A DNA stretch of 64,000 bases from Eledone cirrhosa (GCA_964016885.1 CAXHJY010001394.1:62001-126000); one strand, 5' to 3'. Positions 1-64,000 are shown, counted from the first letter of the stretch. Notes: generated by a model not told the origin, from the sequence alone. Made by a program: numbers and translations.

Positions 1-390
1 TTTATCTATGCATGTATGAATATATAAAATATATATATATATATATGTGTGTATGTATTTATCTATGCATGTATGAATATATAAAATATATATATATATA
101 TATATGTATGTATTTATCTATGCATGTATATATATATAAATATATACATAAATATATATATATATATATGTATTTATCTATGCATGTGTGCATACATATA
201 TATATATATATATGTATTTATCTATACATGTATGTATATATATATATATACATATATAAGTATTTATCTATACATGTATGTATATATATATATACATATA
301 TATGTATTTATCTATACATGTATGTATATATATATATATATATATATGTATATAAGTATTTATCTATACATGTATGTATATATAAAATAT
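1..390. repeat. (TA)n-rich minisatellite with recurring TATTTATCTAT(G/A)CATG core
   Basis: Direct reading. Full-length copies lie at about 15976-16553, 33726-34303, 45139-45716 and 56550-57127. Confidence 0.95.
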
Positions 391-473
391 TGTCATGTTT
401 ACAAAAATATTTTTCTAATATCGTGTTTAATATTTTATATTGTCGTCTGCTTCTCTTCTCACGTGGTTACTAA

Positions 474-847
474 CTCTCTCACCCTCTCTCTCTTTCCCCT
501 CTCATACAACCCCTTCTTTCTCTTTCTTTCCCCTCTCACACAACCTCTTCTTTCTCTCTCTTTTTGCCAGTCCCTTCTCTCACTCTCTCTCCCTCTTCCT
601 TTTTTATCTCTTTCTTTCTGTCTCTGTTTCCCTCCTATAGACATTCTCTCTCTCTCTTTCTGCTCTCACTCAGCCTTCTCTCTCTTTCCCCTCTCACACA
701 GTCTTCTCTCTCTCTCTTTCCCCTCTCACACAGCATTCTCTCTCTCTCTCTCTCTCTTTCCCCTCTCACACAGCATTCTCTCTCTCTCTCTCTCTTTATT
801 TCCCCTCTCACACAGCCTTCTCTCTCTATCTATCTATCTCTCTCTCT
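474..847 (+). repeat. Polypyrimidine (CT)n minisatellite with TTTCCCCTCTCACACAGC units
   Basis: Repeated ctttcccctctcacacagc(a/c)ttctctctc units on an almost purine-free + strand. Confidence 0.93.
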
Positions 848-7250: not shown

Positions 7251-7259
7251 GTAATCATT

Positions 7260-8076: not shown

Positions 8077-11000
8077 GGCCCTGTGCGTCGATCGTGGGCC
8101 GGCCGGATGTTGACGGATCGATGTGTAATTAGAAGTACATGTGCGGACACTCATTGGCTGTGCGTGGTATGCATTTCAGCAAGATATCTCCGTAACATCA
8201 AGAGTTATGGCTGTGGAGGCACACCTAGTCAAACGTAAACAAGCTCTGGAGCGTATACGCTTCGCGATTTTGTTTACGTTTGACTAGGTGTGCCTCCACA
8301 GCCACAACTCTTGATGTTACGGAGATATCTTGCTGAAATGCATACCACGCACAGCCAATGAGTGTCCGCACATGTACTTCTAATTACACATCGATCCGTC
8401 AACATCCGGCCGGCCCACGATCGACGCACAGGGCCGGATGGCCCGTTTGCAGTGAATTTTCACCGGAATCGATCTGTAATTACTGGTACATGTGCGGACA
8501 CACATTTGCTGTGTGTGGTGTGATTTTCACGAAAAACTGCCCATGCTAAATGAGGAAGCTGAAGTCCGCCGGCGAATGGTGTGCTTCGAAGAAAACTAAT
8601 TCGAAAATGACCGTTTGCAGGCGGAGTAACCTTTTCGATCGTGGGCCAGCCGCCCGTGGTGGGATACATCTGTAATTACTGGTACATGTGCGGACACACA
8701 TTTGCTGTGTGTGGTGTGATTTTCGAGAAAGACTGCCCATGCTAAATGAGGAAGCTGAAGTCCGCCGGCGAATGGTGTGCTTCGAAGAAAACTAATTCGA
8801 AAATGACTATTTGCCGGCGGAATCACCTTTTCGGTCCTGGTCCGGCCGGATCTTGCCGGATCGATCGGAAATTTGTGGACCATGTTCGGAAGGCCATTGT
8901 GCATGTGTGGTGAAAAAAATTTGTGTCGAAATCTTCTCGGAAAATAACGGATCGCCGGCGGAGATTGCCATTTCGATCGTGGGCCGGCCGGATCTTGTCG
9001 GATCGATTCGGACATATGTGCATCGTGTTCGCAAGGCCCTTGTCTATGTGTGGTGTGATTTTCATAAAGAAATTCCGAAAAACCCAGTTTTAAATCTGAT
9101 TTCGCCAAAGAATTTTGGCTATCAGATCGGGTTGAAAGGTATGGTTTCAGGTCGATCTGAAAGTCTAAAATGGAATTCACTCGGTTAGCTAACTTTTGAT
9201 ATATCGGAGATATCTTTCTGAAAATCACACCACACACTCCCAATGAGTGTCTGCACATGTACGAGTAATTACAGATGGATCCCACCACGGGCGGCCGGCC
9301 CACGATCGAAAAGGTTACTCCGAAGCACACCATTCGCCGGCGGAATTCATTTAGCATGGGCAGTTTTTCTCGAAAATCACACCACACACAGCCAATGAGT
9401 GTCCGCACATGTACCAGTAATTACAGATGGATCCCACCACGGGCGGCTGGCCCACGATCGAAAAGGTTACTCCGCCTGCAAACGGTCATTTTCGAATTAG
9501 TTTTCTTCGAAGCACACCATTCGCCGGCGGACTTCAGCTTCCTCATTTAGCATGGGCAGTTTTTCTCGAAAATCACACCACACACAGCAAATGTGTGTCC
9601 GCACATGTACCAGTAATTACAGATCGATTCCGGTGAAAATTCACTGAAAACGGGCCATTCTGCCCTGTGCGTCGATCGTGGGCCGGCCGGATGTTGACGG
9701 ATCGATGTGTAATTAGAAGTACATGTGCGGACACTCATTGGCTGTGCGTGGTATGCATTTCAGCAAGATATCTCCGTAACATCAAGAGTTATGGCTGTGG
9801 AGGCACACCTAGTCAAACGTAAACAAGCTCTGGAGCGTATACGCTTCGCGATTTTGTTTACGTTTGACTAGGTGTGCCTCCACAGCCACAACTCTTGATG
9901 TTACGGAGATATCTTGCTGAAATGCATACCACGCACAGCCAATGAGTGTCCGCACATGTACTTCTAATTACACATCGATCCGTCAACATCCGGCCGGCCC
10001 ACGATCGACGCACAGGGCCGGATGGCCCGTTTTCAGTGAATTTTCACCGGAATCGATCTGTAATTACTGGTACATGTGCGGACACACATTTGCTGTGTGT
10101 GGTGTGATTTTCACGAAAAACTGCCCATGCTAAATGAGGAAGCTGAAGTCCGCCGGCGAATGGTGTGCTTCGAAGAAAACTAATTCGAAAATGACCGTTT
10201 GCAGGCGGAGTAACCTTTTCGATCGTGGGCCAGCCGCCCGTGGTGGGATACATCTGTAATTACTGGTACATGTGCGGACACACATTTGCTGTGTGTGGTG
10301 TGATTTTCGAGAAAGACTGCCCATGCTAAATGAGGAAGCTGAAGTCCGCCGGCGAATGGTGTGCTTCGAAGAAAACTAATTCGAAAATGACTATTTGCCG
10401 GCGGAATCACCTTTTCGGTCCTGGTCCGGCCGGATCTTGCCGGATCGATCGGAAATTTGTGGACCATGTTCGGAAGGCCATTGTGCATGTGTGGTGAAAA
10501 AAATTTGTGTCGAAATCTTCTCGGAAAATAACGGATCGCCGGCGGAGATTGCCATTTCGATCGTGGGCCGGCCGGATCTTGTCGGATCGATTCGGACATA
10601 TGTGCATCGTGTTCGCAAGGCCCTTGTCTATGTGTGGTGTGATTTTCATAAAGAAATTCCGAAAAACCCAGTTTTAAATCTGATTTCGCCAAAGAATTTT
10701 GGCTATCAGATCGGGTTGAAAGGTATGGTTTCAGGTCGATCTGAAAGTCTAAAATGGAATTCACTCGGTTAGCTAACTTTTGATATATCGGAGATATCTT
10801 TCTGAAAATCACACCACACACTCCCAATGAGTGTCTGCACATGTACCAGTAATTACAGATGGATCCCACCACGGGCGGCCGGCCCACGATCGAAAAGGTT
10901 ACTCCGAAGCACACCATTCGCCGGCGGAATTCATTTAGCATGGGCAGTTTTTCTCGAAAATCACACCACACACAGCCAATGAGTGTCCGCACATGTACCA

Positions 11001-14000
11001 GTAATTACAGATGGATCCCACCACGGGCGGCTGGCCCACGATCGAAAAGGTTACTCCGCCTGCAAACGGTCATTTTCGAATTAGTTTTCTTCGAAGCACA
11101 CCATTCGCCGGCGGACTTCAGCTTCCTCATTTAGCATGGGCAGTTTTTCTCGAAAATCACACCACACACAGCAAATGTGTGTCCGCACATGTACCAGTAA
11201 TTACAGATCGATTCCGGTGAAAATTCACTGAAAACGGGCCATTCTGCCCTGTGCGTCGATCGTGGGCCGGCCGGATGTTGACGGATCGATGTGTAATTAG
11301 AAGTACATGTGCGGACACTCATTGGCTGTGCGTGGTATGCATTTCAGCAAGATATCTCCGTAACATCAAGAGTTATGGCTGTGGAGGCACACCTAGTCAA
11401 ACGTAAACAAGCTCTGGAGCGTATACGCTTCGCGATTTTGTTTACGTTTGACTAGGTGTGCCTCCACAGCCACAACTCTTGATGTTACGGAGATATCTTG
11501 CTGAAATGCATACCACGCACAGCCAATGAGTGTCCGCACATGTACTTCTAATTACACATCGATCCGTCAACATCCGGCCGGCCCACGATCGACGCACAGG
11601 GCCGGATGGCCCGTTTTCAGTGAATTTTCACCGGAATCGATCTGTAATTACTGGTACATGTGCGGACACACATTTGCTGTGTGTGGTGTGATTTTCACGA
11701 AAAACTGCCCATGCTAAATGAGGAAGCTGAAGTCCGCCGGCGAATGGTGTGCTTCGAAGAAAACTAATTCGAAAATGACCGTTTGCAGGCGGAGTAACCT
11801 TTTCGATCGTGGGCCAGCCGCCCGTGGTGGGATACATCTGTAATTACTGGTACATGTGCGGACACACATTTGCTGTGTGTGGTGTGATTTTCGAGAAAGA
11901 CTGCCCATGCTAAATGAGGAAGCTGAAGTCCGCCGGCGAATGGTGTGCTTCGAAGAAAACTAATTCGAAAATGACTATTTGCCGGCGGAATCACCTTTTC
12001 GGTCCTGGTCCGGCCGGATCTTGCCGGATCGATCGGAAATTTGTGGACCATGTTCGGAAGGCCATTGTGCATGTGTGGTGAAAAAAATTTGTGTCGAAAT
12101 CTTCTCGGAAAATAACGGATCGCCGGCGGAGATTGCCATTTCGATCGTGGGCCGGCCGGATCTTGTCGGATCGATTCGGACATATGTGCATCGTGTTCGC
12201 AAGGCCCTTGTCTATGTGTGGTGTGATTTTCATAAAGAAATTCCGAAAAACCCAGTTTTAAATCTGATTTCGCCAAAGAATTTTGGCTATCAGATCGGGT
12301 TGAAAGGTATGGTTTCAGGTCGATCTGAAAGTCTAAAATGGAATTCACTCGGTTAGCTAACTTTTGATATATCGGAGATATCTTTCTGAAAATCACACCA
12401 CACACTCCCAATGAGTGTCTGCACATGTACCAGTAATTACAGATGGATCCCACCACGGGCAGCCGGCCCACGATCGAAAAGGTTACTCCGAAGCACACCA
12501 TTCGCCGGCGGAATTCATTTAGCATGGGCAGTTTTTCTCGAAAATCACACCACACACAGCCAATGAGTGTCCGCACATGTACCAGTAATTACAGATGGAT
12601 CCCACCACGGGCGGCTGGCCCACGATCGAAAAGGTTACTCCGCCTGCAAACGGTCATTTTCGAATTAGTTTTCTTCGAAGCACACCATTCGCCGGCGGAC
12701 TTCAGCTTCCTCATTTAGCATGGGCAGTTTTTCTCGAAAATCACACCACACACAGCAAATGTGTGTCCGCACATGTACCAGTAATTACAGATCGATTCCG
12801 GTGAAAATTCACTGAAAACGGGCCATTCTGCCCTGTGCGTCGATCGTGGGCCGGCCGGATGTTGACGGATCGATGTGTAATTAGAAGTACATGTGCGGAC
12901 ACTCATTGGCTGTGCGTGGTATGCATTTCAGCAAGATATCTCCGTAACATCAAGAGTTATGGCTGTGGAGGCACACCTAGTCAAACGTAAACAAGCTCTG
13001 GAGCGTATACGCTTCGCGATTTTGTTTACGTTTGACTAGGTGTGCCTCCACAGCCACAACTCTTGATGTTACGGAGATATCTTGCTGAAATGCATACCAC
13101 GCACAGCCAATGAGTGTCCGCACATGTACTTCTAATTACACATCGATCCGTCAACATCCGGCCGGCCCACGATCGACGCACAGGGCCGGATGGCCCGTTT
13201 TCAGTGAATTTTCACCGGAATCGATCTGTAATTACTGGTACATGTGCGGACACACATTTGCTGTGTGTGGTGTGATTTTCACGAAAAACTGCCCATGCTA
13301 AATGAGGAAGCTGAAGTCCGCCGGCGAATGGTGTGCTTCGAAGAAAACTAATTCGAAAATGACCGTTTGCAGGCGGAGTAACCTTTTCGATCGTGGGCCA
13401 GCCGCCCGTGGTGGGATACATCTGTAATTACTGGTACATGTGCGGACACACATTTGCTGTGTGTGGTGTGATTTTCGAGAAAGACTGCCCATGCTAAATG
13501 AGGAAGCTGAAGTCCGCCGGCGAATGGTGTGCTTCGAAGAAAACTAATTCGAAAATGACTATTTGCCGGCGGAATCACCTTTTCGGTCCTGGTCCGGCCG
13601 GATCTTGCCGGATCGATCGGAAATTTGTGGACCATGTTCGGAAGGCCATTGTGCATGTGTGGTGAAAAAAATTTGTGTCGAAATCTTCTCGGAAAATAAC
13701 GGATCGCCGGCGGAGATTGCCATTTCGATCGTGGGCCGGCCGGATCTTGTCGGATCGATTCGGACATATGTGCATCGTGTTCGCAAGGCCCTTGTCTATG
13801 TGTGGTGTGATTTTCATAAAGAAATTCCGAAAAACCCAGTTTTAAATCTGATTTCGCCAAAGAATTTTGGCTATCAGATCGGGTTGAAAGGTATGGTTTC
13901 AGGTCGATCTGAAAGTCTAAAATGGAATTCACTCGGTTAGCTAACTTTTGATATATCGGAGATATCTTTCTGAAAATCACACCACACACTCCCAATGAGT

Positions 14001-15932
14001 GTCTGCACATGTACCAGTAATTACAGATGGATCCCACCACGGGCGGCCGGCCCACGATCGAAAAGGTTACTCCGAAGCACACCATTCGCCGGCGGAATTC
14101 ATTTAGCATGGGCAGTTTTTCTCGAAAATCACACCACACACAGCCAATGAGTGTCCGCACATGTACCAGTAATTACAGATGGATCCCACCACGGGCGGCT
14201 GGCCCACGATCGAAAAGGTTACTCCGCCTGCAAACGGTCATTTTCGAATTAGTTTTCTTCGAAGCACACCATTCGCCGGCGGACTTCAGCTTCCTCATTT
14301 AGCATGGGCAGTTTTTCTCGAAAATCACACCACACACAGCAAATGTGTGTCCGCACATGTACCAGTAATTACAGATCGATTCCGGTGAAAATTCACTGAA
14401 AACGGGCCATTCTGCCCTGTGCGTCGATCGTGGGCCGGCCGGATGTTGACGGATCGATGTGTAATTAGAAGTACATGTGCGGACACTCATTGGCTGTGCG
14501 TGGTATGCATTTCAGCAAGATATCTCCGTAACATCAAGAGTTATGGCTGTGGAGGCACACCTAGTCAAACGTAAACAAGCTCTGGAGCGTATACGCTTCG
14601 CGATTTTGTTTACGTTTGACTAGGTGTGCCTCCACAGCCACAACTCTTGATGTTACGGAGATATCTTGCTGAAATGCATACCACGCACAGCCAATGAGTG
14701 TCCGCACATGTACTTCTAATTACACATCGATCCGTCAACATCCGGCCGGCCCACGATCGACGCACAGGGCCGGATGGCCCGTTTTCAGTGAATTTTCACC
14801 GGAATCGATCTGTAATTACTGGTACATGTGCGGACACACATTTGCTGTGTGTGGTGTGATTTTCACGAAAAACTGCCCATGCTAAATGAGGAAGCTGAAG
14901 TCCGCCGGCGAATGGTGTGCTTCGAAGAAAACTAATTCGAAAATGACCGTTTGCAGGCGGAGTAACCTTTTCGATCGTGGGCCAGCCGCCCGTGGTGGGA
15001 TACATCTGTAATTACTGGTACATGTGCGGACACACATTTGCTGTGTGTGGTGTGATTTTCGAGAAAGACTGCCCATGCTAAATGAGGAAGCTGAAGTCCG
15101 CCGGCGAATGGTGTGCTTCGAAGAAAACTAATTCGAAAATGACTATTTGCCGGCGGAATCACCTTTTCGGTCCTGGTCCGGCCGGATCTTGCCGGATCGA
15201 TCGGAAATTTGTGGACCATGTTCGGAAGGCCATTGTGCATGTGTGGTGAAAAAAATTTGTGTCGAAATCTTCTCGGAAAATAACGGATCGCCGGCGGAGA
15301 TTGCCATTTCGATCGTGGGCCGGCCGGATCTTGTCGGATCGATTCGGACATATGTGCATCGTGTTCGCAAGGCCCTTGTCTATGTGTGGTGTGATTTTCA
15401 TAAAGAAATTCCGAAAAACCCAGTTTTAAATCTGATTTCGCCAAAGAATTTTGGCTATCAGATCGGGTTGAAAGGTATGGTTTCAGGTCGATCTGAAAGT
15501 CTAAAATGGAATTCACTCGGTTAGCTAACTATTGATATATCGGAGATATCTTTCTGAAAATCACACCACACACTCCCAATGAGTGTCTGCACATGTCCCA
15601 GTAATTACAGATGGATCCCACCACGGGCGGCCGGCCCACGATCGAAAAGGTTACTCCGAAGCACACCATTCGCCGGCGGAATTCATTTAGCATGGGCAGT
15701 TTTTCTCGAAAATCACACCACACACAGCCAATCAGTGTCCGCACATGTACCAGTAATTACAGATGGATCCCACTACGGGCGGCTGGCCCACGATCGAAAA
15801 GGTTACTCCGCCTGCAAACGGTCATTTTCGAATTCGTTTTCTTCGAAGCACACCATTCGCCGGCGGACTTCAGCTGCCTCATTTAGCATGGGCAGCTTTT
15901 CTCGAAAATCACACCACACACAGCCAATGAGT
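8077..15932. repeat. Palindromic satellite array 1: 4 x 1584 bp + 1520 bp
   Basis: Identical ORF set every 1584 bp. Palindrome axes at 8256, 9840, 11424, 13008 and 14592. Confidence 0.97.
9347..10333. repeat. Representative long inverted repeat of the satellite (~480-bp arms, 27-nt centre)
   Basis: 9347-9826 is the reverse complement of 9854-10333, with about 9 mismatches by eye and no indels. Confidence 0.93.
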
Positions 15933-16007
15933 TTAAAATACTCACCGTTTGATTTGGAAAAACTTAAAATGCTCACATATATATGTGTATGTATTTATCT
16001 ATGCATG

Positions 16008-16053
<46 letters not shown>

Positions 16054-19000
16054 TGTATTTATCTATGTATTTATCTATATGCATGGATATATATATATAT
16101 ATATATATTTATCTATGTATTTATCTATATGCATGGATATATATATATATATATATATATATGTATTTATCTATGCATGTATGAATATATAAAATATATA
16201 TATATATATATGTGTGTATGTATTTATCTATGCATGTATGAATATATAAAATATATATATATATATATATGTATGTATTTATCTATGCATGTATATATAT
16301 ATAAATATATACATAAATATATATATATATATATGTATTTATCTATGCATGTGTGCATACATATATATATATATATATGTATTTATCTATACATGTATGT
16401 ATATATATATATATACATATATAAGTATTTATCTATACATGTATGTATATATATATATACATATATATGTATTTATCTATACATGTATGTATATATATAT
16501 ATATATATATATGTATATAAGTATTTATCTATACATGTATGTATATATAAAATATTGTCATGTTTACAAAAATATTTTTCTAATATCGTGTTTAATATTT
16601 TATATTGTCGTCTGCTTCTCTTCTCACGTGGTTACTAACTCTCTCACCCTCTCTCTCTTTCCCCTCTCATACAACCCCTTCTTTCTCTTTCTTTCCCCTC
16701 TCACACAACCTCTTCTTTCTCTCTCTTTTTGCCAGTCCCTTCTCTCACTCTCTCTCCCTCTTCCTTTTTTTATCTCTTTCTTTCTGTCTCTGTTTCCCTC
16801 CTATAGACATTCTCTCTCTCTCTTTCTGCTCTCACTCAGCCTTCTCTCTCTTTCCCCTCTCACACAGTCTTCTCTCTCTCTCTTTCCCCTCTCACACAGC
16901 ATTCTCTCTCTCTCTCTCTCTCTTTCCCCTCTCACATAGCATTCTCTCTCTCTCTCTCTCTTTATTTCCCCTCTCACACAGCCTTCTCTCTCTATCTATC
17001 TATCTCTCTCTCTGGAGATTTTTTAACACAAAGTCACACAAGGATTAGAAAAATGGCGATTATCACTTTGAAAGTAACAATTATGCAATAAATAGTTGTT
17101 ATTGCCACGTCTCGTATCCTCCTTTGGCAATGTGTAAAATGTTAGCGAGATCGAGTGAACAATACACAAGTTATAATACTTTACAGACGGGACTTATACA
17201 GTAGATGTAGCAAAATGCGTAGATTACGATTCTTGAGACGAGATTAAAATATACGATTATGGGATACTTTAAGAAGACGAGTAGATGTTTGAGTAGATTT
17301 AGCTGCTTTTTCTAGCATTTTTAGTTATACTTTGAAGCAAATTTTTTTTGTTACTATTATATTAAAAGTTATCTGGTTACGTTATTTGACTGGTATTTCT
17401 AGCATTTTACAAGGACCACGTGTGTGTTTTATTTGAGGAAGATCTAGTTGTTATTTCTGATATTTTCTTCATCAAGTTAGTTGCTATTTCCTGCATCCTC
17501 TTGAAGACAAGGAATAATAATGAATTAGCTGCTGTTTCTAGTAGGTTCTATGGTAGTGGTGAGCGTGGGAGGGAGGTTTGACTGCTATTTTTAGCAGGTT
17601 CTAAGGCATTGAGGTTTATGTTTTACGAGAGATTTGGCTGTTATTTCTAACATGTTATAATGGAGAGAGAGAGAGAGAGTATAAGATATACAGAGAGAGG
17701 GAGTATAAGATATAGAGAGAGGGGAAACGGCCGATGTTTACGTTGAGAAAACCTAATAAAATGTTATAAATGGGTTTATAAAGAATAGAATGAGATAAAC
17801 AAGACAAAGTTAGATAAAATAAATCAGCTGTAAGGATATTATACGATATATTTATAATATTTTAATATATTTTTCCTGGTCGTCTGCTGCCATTGATAGA
17901 GAGAGGAGTGGTGGGAGGTAGCCATAACAACCGTGGTAGCAGCACTGAGGTTTGTTTTTAAAGAAGTGAATACAAGAAAAACAAGCAACTAAGAATATTA
18001 ATCTCTTAAACCCTTCAAGATGTGTATGACAAGAAAGAAGACGTTTTAGAGTCGTATGACATAGATGATAACTGGAAATTCTTACGTGACAACTTACTGC
18101 AGGCTACTGAAGAAACTTGTGGCTGGAGCAGAGCTCCGACCAGACAGAGAGTGACCTGGTGGTGGGACAACACGGTAGATAAGGCCATTAGAGACAAAAG
18201 ACTAGCATGGAACACTTGAAAAAATGGTGGGAGTAGAGACCGATACACAGCTGCTAAGAGAGAAGCTAGACGTCAGATGTACTTAGCACGCACGGAGGCT
18301 GAGAGTAGGAGGTTTGCCAATGTTCTGTGATGGGAAGATCAGAGGCGTGCGGTGTTCCACATTGCAAGGCATGGTGTCAGTGTAAATCAGGATGTTGTTG
18401 GAGATAAGTGTATCCGGAATGATGCCAGTGTACTTGGTGTCACGAATGATCAAAAAAAGGAGGCCTGGAAATATCATTATGAGAGGCTGATGAATTGTGG
18501 AGAATGAATGGGAGAGAGGGAAACTATCCCCAGTAGACCCAACAGAGGGACCAGCTATTGAGATTGGGGAATATAGGGTACAAGAGGCAATTAAGGAAAT
18601 GAAGAATGGCAAGGCTACTGGACTCTAGGGGATAGTTGCTCAGATGCTGAAGGCATCAGAAGTAGGCACTAAACTGGTTACACACATCATCAATCAAGCT
18701 ATATATGGTAGTGTCATACCCAAAGAATGGTGCAGCAGTATTCTCATAAATTGGTACAAAGGTAAAGGGGATGCTCTGGAGAGGAGCAATTATATGGGCA
18801 CTTCAATATTTAATGATACAGGTGATAAAACAACAACTATAAGGTAAATAAGTCACCTTATGTTATTTACAAACATTAACGTCCACCTTAATATGAAATA
18901 ATCACCATAAAAGAGGAAGCGAGGGCATCGGCTACCGGCACCCGGGCTGCTCTCTCATCCTGAGTGGGATCTTCCAGCGTTGATGCATCACCACGTTGAT

Positions 19001-44900: not shown

Positions 44901-45095
44901 TCCGCACATGTACCAGTAATTACAGATGGATCCCACTACGGGCGGCTGGCTCACGATCGAAAAGGTTACTCCGCCTGCAAACGGTCATTTTCGAATTCGT
45001 TTTCTTCGAAGCACACCATTCGCCGGCGGACTTCAGCTGCCTCATTTAGCATGGGCAGCTTTTCTCGAAAATCACACCACACACAGCCAATGAGT
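41992..45095. repeat. Palindromic satellite array 3: 1584 bp + 1520 bp
   Basis: Axes at 42171 and 43755; same junctions. Confidence 0.97.
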
Positions 45096-45682: not shown

Positions 45683-48600
45683 AGTATTTATCTATACATG
45701 TATGTATATATAAAATATTGTCATGTTTACAAAAATATTTTTCTAATATCGTGTTTAATATTTTATATTGTCGTCTGCTTCTCTTCTCACGTGGTTACTA
45801 ACTCTCTCACCCTCTCTCTCTTTCCTCTCTCATACAACCCCTTCTTTCTCTTTCTTTCCCCTCTCACACAACCTCTTCTTTCTCTCTCTTTTTGCCAGTC
45901 CCTTCTCTCACTCTCTCTCCCTCTTCCTTTTTTATCTCTTTCTTTCTGTCTCTGTTTCCCTCCTATAGACATTCTCTCTCTCTCTTTCTGCTCTCACTCA
46001 GCCTTCTCTCTCTTTCCCCTCTCACACAGTCTTCTCTCTCTCTCTTTCCCCTCTCACACAGCATTCTCTCTCTCTCTCTCTCTCTTTCCCCTCTCACACA
46101 GCATTCTCTCTCTCTCTCTCTCTTTATTTCCCCTCTCACACAGCCTTCTCTCTCTATCTATCTATCTCTCTCTCTGGAGATTTTTTAACACAAAGTCACA
46201 CAAGGATTAGAAAAATGGCGATAATCACTTTGAAAGTAACAATTATGCAATAAATAGTTGTTATTGCCACGTCTCGTATCCTCCTTTGGCAATGTGTAAA
46301 ATGTTAGCGAGATCGAGTGAACAATACACAAGTTATAATACTTTACAGACGGGACTTATACAGTAGATGTAGCAAAATGCGTAGATTACGATTCTTGAGA
46401 CGAGATTAAAATATACGATTATGGGATACTTTAAGAAGACGAGTAGATGTTTGAGTAGATTTAGCTGCTTTTTCTAGCATTTTTAGTTATACTTTGAAGC
46501 AAATTTTTTTTGTTACTATTATATTAAAAGTTATCTGGTTACGTTATTTGACTGGTATTTCTAGCATTTTACAAGGACCACGTGTGTGTTTTATTTGAGG
46601 AAGATCTAGTTGTTATTTCTGATATTTTCTTCATCAAGTTAGTTGCTATTTCCTGCATCCTCTTGAAGACAAGAAATAATAATGAATTAGCTGCTGTTTC
46701 TAGTAGGTTCTATGGTAGTGATGAGCGTGGGAGGGAGGTTTGACTGCTATTTTTAGCAGGTTCTAAGGCATTGAGGTTTATGTTTTACGAGAGATTTGGC
46801 TGTTATTTCTAACATGTTATAATGGAGAGAGAGAGAGAGAGTATAAGATATACAGAGAGAGGGAGTATAAGATATAGAGAGAGGGGAAACGGCCGATGTT
46901 TACGTTGAGAAAACCTAATAAAATGTTATAAATGGGTTTATAAAGAATAGAATGAGATAAACAAGACAAAGTTAGATAAAATAAATCAGCTGTAAGGATA
47001 TTATACGATATATTTATAATATTTTAATATATTTTTCCTGGTCGTCTGCTGCCATTGATAGAGAGAGGAGTGGTGGGAGGTAGCCATAACAACCGTGGTA
47101 GCAGCACTGAGGTTTGTTTTTAAAGAAGTGAATACAAGAAAAACAAGCAACTAAGAATATTAATCTCTTAAACCCTTCAAGATGTGTATGACAAGAAAGA
47201 AGACGTTTTAGAGTCGTATGACATAGATGATAACTGGAAATTCTTACGTGACAACTTACTGCAGGCTACTGAAGAAACTTGTGGCTGGAGCAGAGCTCCG
47301 ACCAGACAGAGAGTGACCTGGTGGTGGGACAACACGGTAGATAAGGCCATTAGAGACAAAAGACTAGCATGGAACACTTGAAAAAATGGTGGGAGTAGAG
47401 ACCGATACACAGCTGCTAAGAGAGAAGCTAGACGTCAGATGTACTTAGCACGCACGGAGGCTGAGAGTAGGAGGTTTGCCAATGTTCTGTGATGGGAAGA
47501 TCAGAGGCGTGCGGTGTTCCACATTGCAAGGCATGGTGTCAGTGTAAATCAGGATGTTGTTGGAGATAAGTGTATCCGGAATGATGCCAGTGTACTTGGT
47601 GTCACGAATGATCAAAAAAAGGAGGCCTGGAAATATCATTATGAGAGGCTGATGAATTGTGGAGAATGAATGGGAGAGAGGGAAACTATCCCCAGTAGAC
47701 CCAACAGAGGGACCAGCTATTGAGATTGGGGAATATAGGGTACAAGAGGCAATTAAGGAAATGAAGAATGGCAAGGCTACTGGACTCTAGGGGATAGTTG
47801 CTCAGATGCTGAAGGCATCAGAAGTAGGCACTAAACTGGTTACACACATCATCAATCAAGCTATATATGGTAGTGTCATACCCAAAGAATGGTGCAGCAG
47901 TATTCTCATAAATTGGTACAAAGGTAAAGGGGATGCTCTGGAGAGGAGCAATTATATGGGCACTTCAATATTTAATGATACAGGTGATAAAACAACAACT
48001 ATAAGGTAAATAAGTCACCTTATGTTATTTACAAACATTAACGTCCACCTTAATATGAAATAATCACCATAAAAGAGGAAGCGAGGGCATCGGCTACCGG
48101 CACCCGGGCTGCTCTCTCATCCTGAGTGGGATCTTCCAGCGTTGATGCATCACCACGTTGATGTAAAACTTGGTTTTTCACTTTGGGATAATACACGTAT
48201 TTGCAACTTATTTATGTTTATTTACGTTGAGCGTAATCGATTTGTTTCCATATCTCCACGCGTTTTATTTCATAGTCATAGTTATAAAATTAGAAAACTT
48301 TCTTTAAAAAAAACAAATTAACGCGGGTAACTACAAGATAACCTTGTTTTGTAATACTGGCAGACATTGAAGATTCTTTATGGATGGTTGATACTCAGCT
48401 GCCAGGAACACAGGATGTGGCAGAGGGTATAAGATTTGCCTGCTATTTCTAGCAACTTCAATGACCACATAATTGGTTTGTAATTTTGTTTTAAAGTGTA
48501 AGGGTTTACACAGCCATTTATGAATTTCTAAGAGATACGTTTACGATGAGATACACTTATTAAAAATACTTTCATTGCATAGTTCCGTTTGTAAAGGCTT

Positions 48601-53402: not shown

Positions 53403-56400
53403 GGCCCTGTGCGTCGATCGTGGGCCGGCCGGATGTTGACGGATCGATGTGTAATTAGAAGTACATGTGCGGACACTCATTGGCTGTGCGTGGTATGCAT
53501 TTCAGCAAGATATCTCCGTAACATCAAGAGTTATGGCTGTGGAGGCACACCTAGTCAAACGTAAACAAGCTCTGGAGCGTATACGCTTCGCGATTTTGTT
53601 TACGTTTGACTAGGTGTGCCTCCACAGCCACAACTCTTGATGTTACGGAGATATCTTGCTGAAATGCATACCACGCACAGCCAATGAGTGTCCGCACATG
53701 TACTTCTAATTACACATCGATCCGTCAACATCCGGCCGGCCCACGATCGACGCACAGGGCCGGATGGCCCGTTTGCAGTGAATTTTCACCGGAATCGATC
53801 TGTAATTACTGGTACATGTGCGGACACACATTTGCTGTGTGTGGTGTGATTTTCACGAAAAACTGCCCATGCTAAATGAGGAAGCTGAAGTCCGCCGGCG
53901 AATGGTGTGCTTCGAAGAAAACTAATTCGAAAATGACCGTTTGCAGGCGGAGTAACCTTTTCGATCGTGGGCCAGCCGCCCGTGGTGGGATACATCTGTA
54001 ATTACTGGTACATGTGCGGACACACATTTGCTGTGTGTGGTGTGATTTTCGAGAAAGACTGCCCATGCTAAATGAGGAAGCTGAAGTCCGCCGGCGAATG
54101 GTGTGCTTCGAAGAAAACTAATTCGAAAATGACTATTTGCCGGCGGAATCACCTTTTCGGTCCTGGTCCGGCCGGATCTTGCCGGATCGATCGGAAATTT
54201 GTGGACCATGTTCGGAAGGCCATTGTGCATGTGTGGTGAAAAAAATTTGTGTCGAAATCTTCTCGGAAAATAACGGATCGCCGGCGGAGATTGCCATTTC
54301 GATCGTGGGCCGGCCGGATCTTGTCGGATCGATTCGGACATATGTGCATCGTGTTCGCAAGGCCCTTGTCTATGTGTGGTGTGATTTTCATAAAGAAATT
54401 CCGAAAAACCCAGTTTTAAATCTGATTTCGCCAAAGAATTTTGGCTATCAGATCGGGTTGAAAGGTATGGTTTCAGGTCGATCTGAAAGTCTAAAATGGA
54501 ATTCACTCGGTTAGCTAACTTTTGATATATCGGAGATATCTTTCTGAAAATCACACCACACACTCCCAATGAGTGTCTGCACATGTACCAGTAATTACAG
54601 ATGGATCCCACCACGGGCGGCCGGCCCACGATCGAAAAGGTTACTCCGAAGCACACCATTCGCCGGCGGAATTCATTTAGCATGGGCAGTTTTTCTCGAA
54701 AATCACACCACACACAGCCAATGAGTGTCCGCACATGTACCAGTAATTACAGATGGATCCCACCACGGGCGGCTGGCCCACGATCGAAAAGGTTACTCCG
54801 CCTGCAAACGGTCATTTTCGAATTAGTTTTCTTCGAAGCACACCATTCGCCGGCGGACTTCAGCTTCCTCATTTAGCATGGGCAGTTTTTCTCGAAAATC
54901 ACACCACACACAGCAAATGTGTGTCCGCACATGTACCAGTAATTACAGATCGATTCCGGTGAAAATTCACTGAAAACGGGCCATTCTGCCCTGTGCGTCG
55001 ATCGTGGGCCGGCCGGATGTTGACGGATCGATGTGTAATTAGAAGTACATGTGCGGACACTCATTGGCTGTGCGTGGTATGCATTTCAGCAAGATATCTC
55101 CGTAACATCAAGAGTTATGGCTGTGGAGGCACACCTAGTCAAACGTAAACAAGCTCTGGAGCGTATACGCTTCGCGATTTTGTTTACGTTTGACTAGGTG
55201 TGCCTCCACAGCCACAACTCTTGATGTTACGGAGATATCTTGCTGAAATGCATACCACGCACAGCCAATGAGTGTCCGCACATGTACTTCTAATTACACA
55301 TCGATCCGTCAACATCCGGCCGGCCCACGATCGACGCACAGGGCCGGATGGCCCGTTTTCAGTGAATTTTCACCGGAATCGATCTGTAATTACTGGTACA
55401 TGTGCGGACACACATTTGCTGTGTGTGGTGTGATTTTCACGAAAAACTGCCCATGCTAAATGAGGAAGCTGAAGTCCGCCGGCGAATGGTGTGCTTCGAA
55501 GAAAACTAATTCGAAAATGACCGTTTGCAGGCGGAGTAACCTTTTCGATCGTGGGCCAGCCGCCCGTGGTGGGATACATCTGTAATTACTGGTACATGTG
55601 CGGACACACATTTGCTGTGTGTGGTGTGATTTTCGAGAAAGACTGCCCATGCTAAATGAGGAAGCTGAAGTCCGCCGGCGAATGGTGTGCTTCGAAGAAA
55701 ACTAATTCGAAAATGACTATTTGCCGGCGGAATCACCTTTTCGGTCCTGGTCCGGCCGGATCTTGCCGGATCGATCGGAAATTTGTGGACCATGTTCGGA
55801 AGGCCATTGTGCATGTGTGGTGAAAAAAATTTGTGTCGAAATCTTCTCGGAAAATAACGGATCGCCGGCGGAGATTGCCATTTCGATCGTGGGCCGGCCG
55901 GATCTTGTCGGATCGATTCGGACATATGTGCATCGTGTTCGCAAGGCCCTTGTCTATGTGTGGTGTGATTTTCATAAAGAAATTCCGAAAAACCCAGTTT
56001 TAAATCTGATTTCGCCAAAGAATTTTGGCTATCAGATCGGGTTGAAAGGTATGGTTTCAGGTCGATCTGAAAGTCTAAAATGGAATTCACTCGGTTAGCT
56101 AACTTTTGATATATCGGAGATATCTTTCTGAAAATCACACCACACACTCCCAATGAGTGTCTGCACATGTACCAGTAATTACAGATGGATCCCACCACGG
56201 GCGGCCGGCCCACGATCGAAAAGGTTACTCCGAAGCACACCATTCGCCGGCGGAATTCATTTAGCATGGGCAGTTTTTCTCGAAAATCACACCACACACA
56301 GCCAATGAGTGTCCGCACATGTACCAGTAATTACAGATGGATCCCACCACGGGCGGCTGGCCCACGATCGAAAAGGTTACTCCGCCTGCAAACGGTCATT

Positions 56401-56506
56401 TTCGAATTCGTTTTCTTCGAAGCACACCATTCGCCGGCGGACTTCAGCTGCCTCATTTAGCATGGGCAGCTTTTCTCGAAAATCACACCACACACAGCCA
56501 ATGAGT
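53403..56506. repeat. Palindromic satellite array 4: 1584 bp + 1520 bp
   Basis: Axes at 53582 and 55166. The last monomer is a hybrid of internal and terminal types. Confidence 0.97.
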
Positions 56507-59600: not shown

Positions 59601-62600
59601 TTTCACTTTGGGATAATACACGTATTTGCAACTTATTTATGTTTATTTACGTTGAGCGTAATCGATTTGTTTCCATATCTCCACGCGTTTTATTTCATAG
59701 TCATAGTTATAAAATTAGAAAACTTTCTTTAAAAAAAACAAATTAACGCGGGTAACTACAAGATAACCTTGTTTTGTAATACTGGCAGACATTGAAGATT
59801 CTTTATGGATGGTTGATACTCAGCTGCCAGGAACACAGGATGTGGCAGAGGGTATAAGATTTGCCTGCTATTTCTAGCAACTTCAATGACCACATAATTG
59901 GTTTGTAATTTTGTTTTAAAGTGTAAGGGTTTACACAGCCATTTATGAATTTCTAAGAGATACGTTTACGATGAGATACACTTATTAAAAATACTTTCAT
60001 TGCATAGTTCCGTTTGTAAAGGCTTTAATTTACTGTACTACTCGGGAACCTTTTAATAACACACAGGATTAAGTCCATGTTTGTTCAACCAATTAATGGT
60101 ATCTGCTGTAGTAGGGGTAGCGATGGAAATATGGCGATGATTAACTCCACCCTGGGGTATAATGTAGAATTCATATTTTTCAACTTGCCCATACGTGTAT
60201 TATCCCAAAGTGAAAAACCAAGTTTTACATCAACGTGGTGATTTCAAAGTTTATTTATTTACACATGGTGGTGGGGGGGGGATACGGAAATAAACGAAGG
60301 CTGACGAATGACGTCACATTCTTCTACTTTCACTTCTGACAGCCAATTCCGTTGTAGTGCCATATATAAACATGATGGTCACGGCTGGAACAACTTTAAT
60401 TATAGGTCTGCTCAATCATACTAACATGGGATTTAAATTGAGCAAAGTTGGAGTTGTCTCCCTTGGTACTTTACTACGCTACGTTTGTTTATATATATCA
60501 TCATCATCATCTTCAACATTATCATTTAACGTTCATTGTTATCACACCTGTATGGGTTAAATAGGTTGTCACGTTATGAGACATGTCAGGTGTGGAGACC
60601 AGGTCTCATATGGATGTGTATTTTGGTTTGGTTTCTAAGGCTGGATGCCCTTCTTAACACGAAACACGTTACAATGTGGACTGCACACTTTTGTATGACC
60701 ACCTTACAGGATGAACTGGGTGTTTTTATTGTTGTAGCATCAACGAGGTGTGTGGGATATTTAGCAGGTGAGGGCAGGGCCTTATGAATAGGAAGGGGTG
60801 ATGAGAAGATTGGTGAAGACTAGTGTGTTCTCTACATGTTTGTTTTATTTCATTTTCAGCACATGGGAGGGGGGGGGGGTCTTCTACATTACAGCATGAC
60901 GCCAGAGATCTCGATCCTGTGACATTTCCATTGAGAGGTTTAATTGGGCAAGGCGAGCTTTTATTATTTCATCCCAAGCTTTCCTAGGTCTTCCCCTTTC
61001 ATAGTTAACATCGACTTTGACAACCCTGCACCTTGTTATACAGCTGTCATCTTCCATATACATCACATGTCCAAACCACCACAATCTCCTCTCCTCTACA
61101 CTGCATCTGACCTCTCTTATACCTAGTTTCTCTCTCAGTTTATTAATGCTTGTTGTTCATGCACACTATTACACATCTATCAGATCCTGTAAACTTCATT
61201 TCTTTCCAGTCTTTATAGGTCCTCTGAATATATTGCCCTGGTCTCACTTCAATGTAACATTGCTGTTTGTACACAGACTTCATACAATCTGCCTTTCACT
61301 TTCAGGGGAAATCATTTTGTAGGCATCAGTAGTAGTAGCTCCCTAAACTGTTTCCATCCCATTCTCACTCAGGCTACTGTACCTTCAGAACACCCACCTC
61401 CACTGTTAATTTGGTTAATTAAGTTAACAGAAATTATGAACCGGTTTCTACAGAGCCTTCTGGACATTTAACCCTTTAGCATTTAAACCAGCCATACCTA
61501 GCCAGAATACTCTCACATCTTTCTGTTCAAACCAGCCATAACTGGCCACTCATACTGACGTTAAGGTATTGTTCTCAATATAAATAATATCAAAATCTCA
61601 TAGATTCGATATTATATGAGATAATTATGTAAGATAAAGCCTTTACCACAAAAATACAATAGTATATATAGAGTAATAAAAATGCTAAAGGGTAAAAGTA
61701 GCTTATTATTTTGTGAGCTCTTGCTACTTATTGCTCTTGTGCATCAAGAACATACACAGCTTACATTTTGTTGCTAATCTCACTGAGATCCAACTACATC
61801 TCTTGTTTATCCATAGTTTGGAATTTCTACCTACTCCTTTCCTTTAGAATGATCAAGGCCATTTTCTTGTGGGGATCTAGGCCCTGTTTTCCTTTCTATT
61901 TTGCCAAGTTATCTTACATCACTTTCATTCTAGACCATGCTTCCAGGTTTGGAATTTCTCCTCTAATTTTACCACAGATTAAGTGACAAGGGTTCAATCA
62001 TGTGCATACAGGAGTTCCCATGGACAGCCAGTAATATGTAATAGCCTGCAGGATGATAATAAACAGAAGAGGGTTAATTACAGAGCCCTGATAGAGGGTT
62101 AATAACAGAGCCCTGATAGACTTGTTCACTCAACTCCTCACTATAGCCATCATTACTTTTAACCTTACTGACTGCTCCTCCATACATGGCTTTTACTGCT
62201 CTCACAAGCCACTCATATACCCCTAGTTTTCTAAGTTATACATCAGATTATGGAAGGGGGAAGTCTCACAGAAGCTCTCTCTGGGTCAACAAATGCCAAG
62301 TAGAGGGGCTTATTTTAGCTAGGTACTACTCTTGCAGTTGCCACACAAGGAAGAGGACATCAGTGGTACTTTTACCTGGCACAAATCCAAACTTCATCTC
62401 ATCTAGGTTAACTTGGTCCCTAATCAGCTGTGTTATAAATCTAACACCTTCATGAAGTGGTCCATCTAATATTTCTATAGTTTTCTAGCTCTAGTACATC
62501 TCCTTTGCCCTTGTAGCAGTTGATGATGATGATACTACACCATTTATTTGGTATGACACCATTTTGTATTACATGCTGTACGATACCAGTGGTTAAGATG

Positions 62601-64000
62601 TGACCCACCACCCCAGATACTTTCAGTATCTCAGCAACTATCACCAATGGACAAGATACTTTCTCTGTCTTCATATCCTTAATTACCTTACTACACTACT
62701 GCTTACTTGTATGGCTGGACCCTCTGTTGGGCTCACTTTCCGTAGACTATCTTCCTCCCATGCATTCTCCTCATTCAGTAATCTTTCATAAAGGCATTTC
62801 CATGTTACAAAGGTTGGCTGAAAAGTTCATAGACTATCAATGATAGCATGATGCTAGAGCTGTGAAATCTTGCCTGCATTAATTTCAACTCTTCTTATTA
62901 ATAACTGCATTGTTTCCTTCCAGGGACTATGTTGAAAAATAAACCTCATTTGGTCATTCCATGAGTGTATCTTGGTCTGCCTATGAACTTTTCAGCTGAC
63001 CCTATTCAGCATCAGTGAGCCCAAATGCCCCATTATCATCCTGGACACACTTTACCCCAACATCACAATTTGCCCTCACACACTGCCTCACAATCCTGAA
63101 CATCTCATGTATTTCATCCTCACATCATAAAACCAACTGAAATTATATATTCTCTGCTTCCCTCCTTGCAAAGAATACTTCTTGCCTAGCTTCCTGTAGT
63201 GTACCCTCCAGCTGCCTCCATTCTGCCATTATTCCATGCCTGTCTCTTGGCCTTAACTGTCTCATCTACCCTAGTGTTTCACCACCAAGATACTCTCCTC
63301 TCTGAAGCCCTGCTCCAGCCACAGATCTAGTTTGACACCTTCAGCAAAGGTTCTTTAAGGAACTCCCACTGTTCCCCTATATTGTATGTTTCTATTTGTT
63401 CTTCCTTACTGTTGTAAAGATCAAACAAAATATCTCTAAATTTGGAACTGGCTGAGGGGTCCTTTAACTTCCATATCCTTCTCCTCCAAGTTGCCCTCAG
63501 TCTTCAAGTTCATCTAAGTCTATGAAATCACTAACTACTGGGTTATGTTGGGAGGTGCATTCTTCCCCAGGGGGTGGGGATTGTGTGTTTACAAATGTCA
63601 ATATCTCATCTTCTGGTGAGGATAAAAATCTGACTGGCATGCTCCTCTGACCAATAGGTGTTGAAGTGGTTGTCGGGTAAACGTTAAGACCCTCTGATAT
63701 ACATATATATATATATACTAGCAGTGGTACCCGGCGTTGCACGGGATAACGTATTTCGGAACGCGGGCCGCCATCTTCCACTTCAGCCGGTCGCCCTAAA
63801 GTGTTGGCTATTCAGTCTACTTGAGGCCAGTTGGTGAGGGGGGGGTACAGCTTTCAGTGTGCTACTACCCTCACGGTCAAATAGAAAGGGAGAGGAAGAA
63901 AAGTCAGCGTTAATATCGTGCTACACGTTTGAAAGGTTGGATGACCTTAGAGTTCACCAGGGTGGGGGGTTCTAAAAGTATCTATCTTGGTATTTTATCT
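56507..64000. repeat. Spacer copy E (3' end clipped by the window)
   Basis: Same content as spacer A at +56737 to +56754. It appears the most diverged copy and carries a 16-bp duplication near 59555-59590. Confidence 0.95.

What the first reader, a model, noticed from the sequence alone, without database searches (positions are those of the whole stretch)
1..64000. Three-level repeat hierarchy: 196-bp subrepeat < 1584-bp palindrome < 11-18 kb macro-unit with variable monomer number
Seen: the spacer length is almost constant (8310, 8309, 8307 bp) while the arrays are exactly n x 1584 + 1520 bp with n = 4, 5, 1, 1. Both junctions are base-identical in all units (ACAGAA|GGCCCTGTGCG on the left, CAGCCAATGAGT|TTAAAATAC on the right). 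Inference: an old transposon-debris segment was captured next to the palindrome array, amplified with it as one unit, and is being homogenised. This parallels rDNA-like or macrosatellite concerted evolution, but no gene cargo is recognisable, so the palindrome may be the driver.
Basis: partly seen in the sequence, partly recalled or inferred. Interest (0 to 1): 0.72.

Follow-up and report, generated by a model that had tools for sequence, protein, structure and literature searches.

The report
Self-mirroring satellite inside giant tandem repeat
This window is a gene-free tandem array in which 8.3 kb of dead transposon DNA alternates with 2–6 copies of a 1.6-kb mirror-symmetric repeat; it likely spreads by unequal recombination while its mirrored arms likely copy from each other, an unusual build of a known kind of satellite DNA.

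Summary
There are four arrays of n×1584+1520 bp (n=4,5,1,1), spacers of 8310/8309/8307 bp, and identical junctions.

The description needs correcting. The monomer is neither a run of 196-mers nor one palindrome. It has nine copies of a ~110-bp core in alternating orientation, forming two 359-bp hairpins (one near-perfect, one decayed). It is CpG-rich (o/e 1.15 against 0.34 in the spacer).

The spacer holds three broken reverse-transcriptase LINE pieces, MITE-like inserts and microsatellites. No gene was found.

Recombinant edge monomers and a ≤138-bp shared tract between spacers point to homologous exchange. Two apparently derived changes sit on both mirror arms of internal monomers but not on unpaired edge arms, which suggests arm-to-arm copying.

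Near-identical spacer and hairpin-arm contigs occur in 4 of 4 runs laid, from four studies. No listed contig bridged the junction.

That the palindrome drives amplification, or that the spacer was 'captured' by an existing array, is not shown.

Closest known: Tribolium dyad-symmetric satellites, macrosatellites and foldback transposons. Verdict: a new variant of a known kind, of moderate interest.

The parts
8077..15932 (.). Array U1: 4 full 1584-bp monomers + 1520-bp terminal monomer
24243..33682 (.). Array U2: 5 full monomers + terminal monomer; G/A at monomer position 1217 alternates in monomers 2-6
41992..45095 (.). Array U3: 1 full + terminal monomer; first monomer has the internal-type allele at position 373 (recombinant)
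53403..56506 (.). Array U4: 1 full + terminal monomer; terminal monomer is internal-type to position 1362 and terminal-type from 1423 (recombinant)
8077..8435 (.). Hairpin H1 (monomer 1-359): 166-bp arms with 1 mismatch around a 27-bp asymmetric centre that holds a 12-bp inner palindrome; predicted -231 kcal/mol, z -39.6
8440..8961 (+). Forward subunits F2, F3, F4 (monomer 364-885); source of the 196-bp period
8962..9320 (.). Decayed hairpin H2 (monomer 886-1244): same 359-bp length and 332-bp core-to-core distance as H1, 63% identical to it; predicted -79 kcal/mol, z -9.5 (folded on the copy at 10546-10904)
9321..9656 (-). Reverse subunits R3, R2 (monomer 1245-1580), mirror of F3/F2 of the next monomer
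9597..9660 (.). 64 bp found only at monomer-monomer joints; 63 of 64 bases mirror monomer 360-423
15531..15932 (.). Edge zone of the terminal monomer with 9 fixed differences from internal monomers (all 9 in U1-U3, the last 5 in U4)
15933..24242 (.). Spacer S1 (8310 bp). Other copies: 1-8076 (partial), 33683-41991, 45096-53402, 56507-64000 (partial)
15977..17013 (.). AT-rich (15977-16549) and CT-rich (16650-17013) microsatellite blocks
18073..18820 (+). Broken LINE ORF piece (region upstream of the RT domain)
   Evidence: tblastn to P0140, E 6e-61
18987..19655 (.). Element bounded by 61-bp, 95% inverted repeats (DNA-transposon-like; family not identified)
20209..22780 (-). Broken LINE ORF spanning the RT region and C-terminus, interrupted by two MITE-like inserts
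   Evidence: P0140 has RVT_1 at residues 239-439, and its residues 243-375 align to 21504-21896
20879..21109 (.). MITE-like insert with 18-bp inverted ends starting TTAACCC (piggyBac-like by recall)
   Evidence: summed contig depth 26,591 in X2
22224..22413 (.). MITE-like insert with 34-bp, 76% inverted ends
   Evidence: summed contig depth 27,111 in X2
23473..24242 (+). LINE ORF C-terminal piece, cut at the array just before where its stop and 3' UTR would lie; 4 of the 5 bases after the junction also match the other LINE copy (possible microhomology)
46674..46721 (.). Two SNPs shared only by spacers S3 and S4, flanked by S4-private sites at S3 46597 and 46736: exchange tract of 48-138 bp

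Best explanation
This is a gene-free macrosatellite in which 8.3 kb of LINE, MITE-like and microsatellite debris alternates with 2-6 copies of a CpG-rich, dyad-symmetric 1584-bp monomer; it likely changes copy number at both levels by unequal homologous exchange, while fold-back copying likely keeps the mirrored arms alike. SHOWN: the anatomy, recombinant edge monomers, exact 1584-bp register without indels, incompatible SNP partitions among spacers, and divergence concentrated at array edges. INFERRED, in order: (1) a ~360-bp hairpin (MITE-like) element with a ~110-bp core gave rise, by duplication of arms and inversion, to the nine-subunit monomer; (2) the monomer came to lie against a truncated LINE through a microhomology-type joint without target-site duplication; (3) spacer plus array were then duplicated in tandem very recently; (4) out-of-register exchange between monomers resets the count; (5) single-strand fold-back or template switching around hairpin H1 copies changes between arms where both arms are present. 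The hairpin may raise the local break rate, but that it drives macro-unit amplification is untested. The default reading is neutral or selfish repeat turnover with no host function.
For: Exact n x 1584 + 1520 lengths with no indels in 15 of 15 monomers. Switch points between edge-type and internal-type alleles differ by unit: 1-373 in U3m1, 373-1187 in U4m1, 1362-1423 in U4m2. Spacer SNPs are 18 of 24 transitions; S0-S1 differ by 2, S2-S3 by 6, S4 by 15-18 from the rest. Six site pairs fail the four-gamete test, defining a tract of at most 138 bp. Sister spacers S0/S1 precede the long arrays and S2/S3 the short ones. At 7 of 7 sites where terminal and internal monomers differ within 1289-1520, the internal allele complements the mirror arm (post hoc sign test p=0.016, or 0.031 as 6 events). 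Arm mismatches in 1289-1520 are 6 for internal and 13 for terminal monomers. Two changes look derived and lie on both arms. The 1513/1518 allele pair is shared with F2/F3, whereas F1, R1, R3, R5 and the terminal R2 keep the CCAAT form. T373 is mirrored at 1571, whereas 3 of 4 first monomers, which lack an upstream arm, keep G. H1 and H2 are the same length and 63% identical. No direct repeat sits adjacent to both array ends. Spacer and hairpin-arm contigs with 0-1 differences occur in 4 of 4 runs laid, from four studies.
Against: Five of the seven sites are alleles private to the terminal monomer. The nine terminal differences are transversion-rich (7 of 9 against 6 of 24 in spacers, Fisher p=0.013), so an error-prone joint-forming event could explain much of the asymmetry without ongoing arm copying. 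Six arm mismatches persist in internal monomers, so any correction is slow or patchy. G373 could be a private change that matches the subunit tail by chance. Homology of the H1 and H2 tails is weak (5 of 500 shuffles reach the F1-R5 score, 63 of 500 the F1-F5 score). No listed contig bridges the LINE|monomer junction, and X2 record 23 stops aligning at 24219 with 83 letters left over. No repeat library was available to name the progenitor. All inference rests on five spacers and 15 monomers from one assembly.
Confidence: 0.68

Rival explanations
1. The monomer is a non-autonomous foldback DNA transposon (Rehavkus/Tetris-like, with modular inverted termini) in head-to-tail tandem, formed by double insertion or from a circle. 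Hairpin H1 is then the end-to-end joint, and the arm identity is inherited from the element's termini.
For: Read from centre to centre, the unit has about 540-bp inverted ends built of tandem subrepeats, as described for Rehavkus (PMC12581902 passages). The two array ends are only 64 bp apart in monomer phase, like the partial terminal elements of Bari1 arrays (PMC5932611 passages). The spacer carries other inverted-repeat-bounded elements.
Against: The bases nearest the supposed termini are the least symmetric: 6 bp paired, then 7-8 bp unpaired. No target-site duplication at the array ends. No transposase similarity found. In X2 the arm is represented by one listed contig at depth 40.8, whereas the spacer's MITE-like inserts sum to over 26,000, so near-identical dispersed copies look few (summed depth is not copy number). 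Terminal arms are twice as far from the mirror as internal arms, which inherited termini alone do not predict.
Confidence: 0.17
2. One reading: a pure palindrome array existed first, an 8.3-kb debris segment was inserted at a hairpin-induced break (losing 64 bp), and hairpin fragility then drove amplification of the composite.
For: The left junction falls exactly at the base of hairpin H1, and the two ends are 64 bp apart in phase. Long, closely spaced, similar inverted repeats are recombinogenic (PMC7999016 passages). Terminal-internal divergence (9 in about 400 bp) is far older than spacer divergence.
Against: Arm-to-spacer contig depth is only about 4-7 in X2 and 3-5 in X10, against 7.5 expected from this window alone, which leaves little room for a large pure array (weak, because depth is not copy number and hairpins can be under-sequenced). 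The one mappable spacer exchange is about 1.6 kb from an array. The 27-bp asymmetric centre should lessen cruciform formation (inference).
Confidence: 0.15
3. The dyad-rich, CpG-rich arrays have a chromosomal role, such as centromeric chromatin or a protein-binding boundary, with the spacers as passive intervals, as proposed for Tribolium satellites.
For: The ~110-bp core, multi-level dyad symmetry and conserved inversion points parallel T. madens and T. freemani putative (peri)centromeric satellites. CpG o/e is 1.15 in the monomer against 0-0.05 in the RT fragment. The monomer has 3 CCAAT-box-like matches against 0 in 7.2 kb of spacer.
Against: The monomer makes up only 27-53% of each unit, and counts fall to 2. 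Motif matches are not function. No chromatin or position data. CpG retention may only reflect a progenitor that was never methylated.
Confidence: 0.1
4. The tandem structure, or the monomer counts, are assembly artefacts.
For: Near-identical long repeats and palindromes are hard to assemble (general knowledge). No spanning reads were available, and no listed contig bridges the junction.
Against: Five distinct spacer versions exceed what two haplotypes can give. Differences are transition-biased, nested and shared between copies. 20 of 24 listed runs from 16 studies hold part of the stretch and 8 of 24 hold half or more; one may be the assembly's own source. The hairpin-to-F2 back-to-back joint is in contigs of X2 and X10.
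Confidence: 0.07

Closest known systems
Tribolium complex dyad-symmetric satellites (T. madens TmSat2/MAD2 704 bp, T. brevicornis 1061 bp, T. audax TAUD2; T. freemani TfSat01/TfSat03 alternating arrays). PMC13081366 and PMC12581902, passages read
   Same: Monomer built from a short (~110-bp) ancestral unit in inverted orientation; several nested levels of dyad symmetry; conserved inversion and transition points; arrays separated by intercalary segments.
   Different: Here the interval is 8.3 kb of unrelated LINE and MITE debris homogenised to 99.8% or more, not a second satellite. Arrays have only 2-6 monomers, all in one orientation (no macro-dyad inversion in the window). No evidence of centromeric position or high genome share. 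Sequence homology was not tested; the likeness is architectural.
Macrosatellites (human DXZ4, D4Z4, NBL2). PMC8122249, passages read
   Same: Multi-kb tandem units, a CpG-rich component, concerted evolution.
   Different: The unit here is 11-18 kb, longer than the few-kb monomers described, and contains a nested, count-variable palindromic sub-array. No gene was found.
Foldback DNA transposons with subterminal tandem repeats (Rehavkus, Tetris) and TE-derived tandem arrays (Bari1, R1, hobo). PMC12581902 and PMC5932611, passages read
   Same: Long inverted arms made of subrepeats; a palindrome at the tandem joint; partial units at array ends; expansion by unequal exchange.
   Different: No target-site duplication, no symmetric terminal repeat at the presumed ends, no transposase, and no sign of many near-identical dispersed copies.
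rDNA units with variable intergenic-spacer subrepeats (own knowledge; 10.1101/2023.02.20.529178 seen as listing and start of abstract only)
   Same: 10-20-kb tandem unit with a constant part and a count-variable subrepeat block; transposon remnants in the unit.
   Different: No rRNA or other Rfam family anywhere in 64 kb, so nothing selects for a product.

Membership tests
Macrosatellite / complex satellite DNA | Head-to-tail tandem multi-kb units | tested here: met
   Three full periods of 16166, 17749 and 11411 bp; both window ends lie in spacer copies
Macrosatellite / complex satellite DNA | Concerted evolution (high identity among units, traces of exchange) | tested here: met
   0.03-0.25% spacer divergence; 6 four-gamete pairs; recombinant monomers
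Macrosatellite / complex satellite DNA | Copy-number variation among individuals | not testable with these tools
   Only contigs were laid; depth is not copy number
Dyad-symmetric complex satellite (Tribolium type) | Monomer of inversely oriented subunits from one short ancestor | tested here: met
   Nine subunits aligned, 5 forward and 4 reverse, sharing a ~110-bp core
Dyad-symmetric complex satellite (Tribolium type) | Array-level macro-dyad inversions | tested here: not met
   All 15 monomers and 5 spacers are in one orientation
Dyad-symmetric complex satellite (Tribolium type) | (Peri)centromeric position, large genome share | not testable with these tools
   No genome held for this window
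Foldback DNA transposon (Rehavkus/Tetris-like) | Long inverted termini with tandem subrepeats | tested here: met
   About 540-bp arms at 95% containing 196-bp subrepeats
Foldback DNA transposon (Rehavkus/Tetris-like) | Target-site duplication | tested here: not met
   Longest word shared by the two 20-bp junction flanks is 5 nt and not adjacent to the ends
Foldback DNA transposon (Rehavkus/Tetris-like) | Symmetric, best-conserved terminal repeats at the element ends | tested here: not met
   8 of the 9 arm mismatches within 166+13 pairs of the H1 centre lie in the innermost 13; the other candidate ends share only 5 bases
Foldback DNA transposon (Rehavkus/Tetris-like) | Dispersed copies or an autonomous partner | tested here: inconclusive
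   One listed arm contig at depth 40.8 in X2; only 90%-or-better matches to one 180-bp arm were visible, and 167 loose ends were not shown
rDNA / 5S / snRNA / tRNA gene array | Structural RNA gene in each unit | tested here: not met
   Rfam 0 at gathering score; only AT-repeat matches below threshold in 8000-25000; ARAGORN 0
Non-LTR retrotransposon debris (spacer) | Reverse transcriptase ORF homology | tested here: met
   1094 proteins at E<=0.001 to a 97-aa piece; RVT_1 above cut-off in 8 of 14 scanned, out of 150 listed; tblastn maps three pieces. Direct Pfam scans of the window pieces were empty
Non-LTR retrotransposon debris (spacer) | RTE clade placement | not tested
   RTE is a recalled resemblance; no tree was built

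The most novel reading that the evidence does not exclude
A hairpin-element-derived, self-correcting dyad array acts as a cis-acting amplifier. Breaks and template switches at the hairpin repair its own arms, reset monomer number, and carry 8.3 kb of gene-less passenger DNA to high copy number, possibly seeding CpG-rich centromere-like chromatin. This would be a Tribolium-like dyad architecture arising independently in an unrelated animal lineage (possibly a cephalopod), with an in-genome control: unpaired edge arms against paired internal arms.
Probability: 0.15. Interest if true: 0.72.

Novelty: new variant of a known kind. Interest (0 to 1): 0.4.

Why it matters
Each level has a precedent, but the nesting gives a natural experiment. 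The same arm sequence occurs with a mirror partner (internal monomers) and without one (edge monomers), so arm-to-arm copying, unequal exchange and spacer conversion can be separated and measured in one locus with long reads.

If the hairpin proved to trigger amplification, it would explain how gene-less 10-20-kb tandem arrays arise and persist. If it carried centromeric chromatin, it would extend the dyad-symmetry idea beyond Tribolium.

If neither holds, it is an ornate but neutral satellite, mainly useful for repeat annotation and as a marker.

Tried and rejected
- No whole genome is held, so array ends, unit count and a single-copy ancestral locus could not be sought.
- Rfam: only AT-microsatellite matches below gathering score in 8000-25000 (26 rows); 0 at gathering in the whole window. 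tRNA/tmRNA: 0.
- Pfam on window translations: 0 of 11 ORFs, 0 of 6 read-through frames, 0 of 4 pieces.
- PDB sequence search: 0. Word-indexed protein searches: 0 in both.
- None of 154 fetched proteins matches the monomer alone; 8 alignments only trail past the junction.
- Exact core patterns: 0 in metagenome contigs (21-mer) and 0 in viral contigs (20-mer). An 18-mer gave 120 metagenome loci, but the longest extension was 36 bp, so they were rejected as chance.
- No RNA holder listed; this is no evidence on expression.
- Uncovered parts and the unbridged junction prove nothing.
- Lineage not established: 6 of 20 looked-up proteins carry names, 5 plant and 1 Octopus vulgaris at 45% identity. 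'Octopus-like' is otherwise recalled from the look of the repeats.
- Earlier scan findings: none in 3 look-ups.
- Literature searches for a cephalopod palindromic satellite or macrosatellite listed no paper describing one by title or abstract start. The O. vulgaris repeat paper PMC13282606 has 0 occurrences of 'satellite', 'palindrom' or 'foldback' in its main text. Its supplement was listed but not read and may bear on novelty.
Full report
OBSERVATION. The coordinates and arithmetic are exact. Four arrays (8077-15932, 24243-33682, 41992-45095, 53403-56506) measure n x 1584 + 1520 bp with n = 4, 5, 1, 1. The three full spacers are 8310, 8309 and 8307 bp, and both junctions are identical in 4 of 4 arrays. 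Both ends of the window lie in spacer copies, so the array continues beyond it. The 7 internal monomers differ from a reference by 0-1 base, and no monomer has an indel. Spacers differ by 2-18 SNPs over about 7,240 shared columns; 18 of 24 variable sites are transitions.

ANATOMY OF THE MONOMER. It is not a row of 196-mers. Nine subunits share a ~110-bp core and lie in the order forward, reverse, four forward, three reverse. The 196-bp spacing holds only for F2-F3-F4 and R2-R3. Positions 1-359 form hairpin H1, with 166-bp arms, one mismatch and a 27-bp asymmetric centre; its predicted energy is -231 kcal/mol, z -39.6. Positions 886-1244 form a decayed hairpin H2 of the same length and the same 332-bp core-to-core distance, 63% identical to H1, predicted -79 kcal/mol, z -9.5. 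Tail homology between them is weak (5 and 63 of 500 shuffles reach the scores). Between neighbouring monomers the symmetry around H1 extends to 1090 bp at 95%. The 64 bp present only at monomer-monomer joints mirror positions 360-423 at 63 of 64 bases. CpG observed/expected is 1.15 in the monomer, 0.34 in the spacer and 0-0.05 across the RT fragment.

ANATOMY OF THE SPACER. A 97-aa open piece at 23986-24276 matched 1094 proteins at E<=0.001. I scanned 14 of the 150 listed, mostly long ones; 8 have RVT_1 above the curated cut-off and a ninth below it. tblastn of 154 fetched proteins maps three broken LINE pieces: 18073-18820 (+), 20209-22780 (-) and 23473-24246 (+). Direct Pfam, PDB and word-indexed searches with window pieces were all empty, so the RT call is indirect. 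Three inverted-repeat-bounded inserts (18987-19655, 20879-21109, 22224-22413) and AT and CT microsatellites complete it; these annotated parts cover about 69% of the spacer. No Rfam family or tRNA was found. The RTE clade, the piggyBac-like and Helitron-like labels and an octopus-like lineage are recalled resemblances. Of 20 proteins looked up, 6 were named: 5 plant and 1 Octopus vulgaris at 45%. The organism is therefore not established.

JUNCTIONS. The left junction cuts a LINE ORF just before its end and falls at the base of H1. Alignment to the second LINE copy runs on for 4 of 5 bases into the array, which suggests microhomology and means the G at position 1 may be LINE-derived. The right flank does not resemble the LINE 3' UTR, and there is no target-site duplication. 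The joints are thus not a clean transposon insertion.

TRACES OF MECHANISM. (1) Monomer number. Edge-specific alleles switch to internal alleles at different places in different units (1-373 in U3m1, 373-1187 in U4m1, 1362-1423 in U4m2), as in-register unequal exchange or conversion predicts. (2) Macro-unit. S0/S1 and S2/S3 are sister pairs and precede long and short arrays respectively. Two SNPs shared only by S3 and S4 conflict with three shared by S2 and S3, bounding an exchange tract of 48-138 bp about 1.6 kb from the nearest array. (3) Arms. At 7 of 7 sites in 1289-1520 where terminal and internal monomers differ, the internal allele complements the mirror arm (p=0.016, or 0.031 as six events, post hoc). 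Arm mismatches there number 6 for internal and 13 for terminal monomers. The strongest cases are two apparently derived changes present on both arms: the 1513/1518 pair, and 373 with its mirror 1571. Against this, five of the seven sites are private to the terminal monomer, the terminal differences are transversion-rich (7 of 9 against 6 of 24, p=0.013), and six arm mismatches persist. Error-prone joint formation plus one or two copying events would also fit. Template switching is described as homogenising inverted-repeat arms (PMC8604942 and PMC3820800, listing and start of abstract only). Long, similar, closely spaced arms are recombinogenic, and longer spacers weaken this (PMC7999016, passages).

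OUTSIDE EVIDENCE. Of 24 listed runs, 20 from 16 studies hold part of 22650-25826 and 8 hold half or more; none is on record as RNA, and one may be the assembly's own source. I laid 4 of the 24 on 20600-24422. X2 has spacer contigs of 1128, 794 and 1171 bp with 3, 0 and 1 substitutions (the first also with 30 gap letters) at depth 9.4, 9.2 and 5.9, and the H1 arm at 40.8 with none. X9, X10 and X14 hold shorter pieces, most with 0-2 differences. The back-to-back joint between H1 and F2 is present in X2 and X10. Two alleles absent at the matching S1 positions are shared by X2, X9 and X14. No listed piece bridges the LINE|monomer junction, and one X2 contig leaves the window at 24219. An arm-to-spacer depth ratio of about 3-7 is a weak hint against a large free array; the tool warns that depth is not copy number. 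One thing is unexplained: the two MITE-like bins sum to over 26,000 in X2 but 1-20 in the other three, while spacer depth is only 2-4 times lower. Trace DNA from a source in which the unit is very high-copy, large copy-number differences, or record filtering could each explain this.

BEST EXPLANATION AND RIVALS. Most likely (0.68) this is a neutral or selfish macrosatellite. A hairpin-derived dyad monomer lodged against LINE debris, the whole was amplified recently, counts are reset by unequal exchange, and arms are partly equalised by fold-back copying. A foldback-transposon tandem (0.17) fits the modular arms and near-adjacent ends but fails on target-site duplication and terminal symmetry. 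Capture of the spacer by an older array with the hairpin as driver (0.15) is possible but unsupported by the depth ratio or the one mapped spacer exchange. A centromeric or other chromatin role (0.10) rests on analogy. Artefact (0.07) is unlikely for the structure but not excluded for exact counts. These readings partly overlap, so the figures do not sum to one.

COMPARISON AND NOVELTY. The closest architecture is the Tribolium complex satellites: a ~110-bp ancestor, nested dyad symmetry and intercalary segments (PMC13081366 and PMC12581902, passages). Those authors state that macro-dyad arrays are documented only in Tribolium, and this window shows no array-level inversion. Macrosatellites (PMC8122249, passages) and TE-derived tandems (PMC5932611, passages) supply the other levels. 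Searches listed no description of such a repeat in cephalopods. PMC13282606 (first third of the text and term passages read) does not mention satellites or palindromes in its main text; its supplement was not read, and no repeat library was searchable. What differs here is a count-variable dyad array nested in a homogenised 11-18-kb unit whose constant part is unrelated debris. Verdict: a real feature and a new variant of a known kind, interest 0.40. The bold case of a self-correcting cis-amplifier has probability 0.15 and interest 0.72 if true.

Noticed in passing
bins 20856-20983 and 22264-22391: The two MITE-like inserts sum to depth 26,591 and 27,111 in run X2 but 1-20 in X9, X10 and X14, although spacer depth differs only 2-4-fold. 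Unexplained: trace DNA with a very high-copy unit, copy-number differences, or record filtering.
   Followed up: partly
window 24219 (X2 record 23): An X2 contig matches 23136-24219 with one difference, then has 83 letters that do not align, 23 bp before the array junction; possibly a variant junction or a pre-insertion allele.
   Followed up: no
window 21885, 22023, 22080, 22101: Runs share alleles not present in S1: two substitutions (X2, X9, X14), a 22-bp insertion (X2, X9) and an 8-bp deletion (X2, X10). This suggests other unit subfamilies or haplotypes.
   Followed up: partly
monomer position 1217 in 8077-15932 and 24243-33682: The G/A variant runs GGAGG in U1 and GGAGAG in U2, an incipient two-monomer higher-order repeat.
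   Followed up: partly
window 43804 (U3m2 position 229): A C>T change removes the only outer-arm mismatch of hairpin H1 in this copy; either arm copying or an ordinary transition.
   Followed up: partly
window 21050-23050: CpG is almost absent (o/e 0-0.05) in the minus-strand LINE piece but 0.7-1.0 in other spacer parts, implying different methylation histories within the unit.
   Followed up: no
window 23128-23200: Segment beginning after a (TA)n run with a short GC-rich inverted repeat; resembles a Helitron-like non-autonomous 5' end by recall only.
   Followed up: no
window 56507-64000, insertion near 59549-59588: Spacer S4 is the outlier (11 private SNPs and a 16-bp tandem duplication), possibly the start of an older subfamily or an approach to the array edge.
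   Followed up: partly
monomer subunits, e.g. 8352, 9389: The core carries CCAAT-box-like and E-box-like words (3 strict CCAAT-box matches per monomer, 0 in 7.2 kb of spacer); no evidence of function.
   Followed up: no
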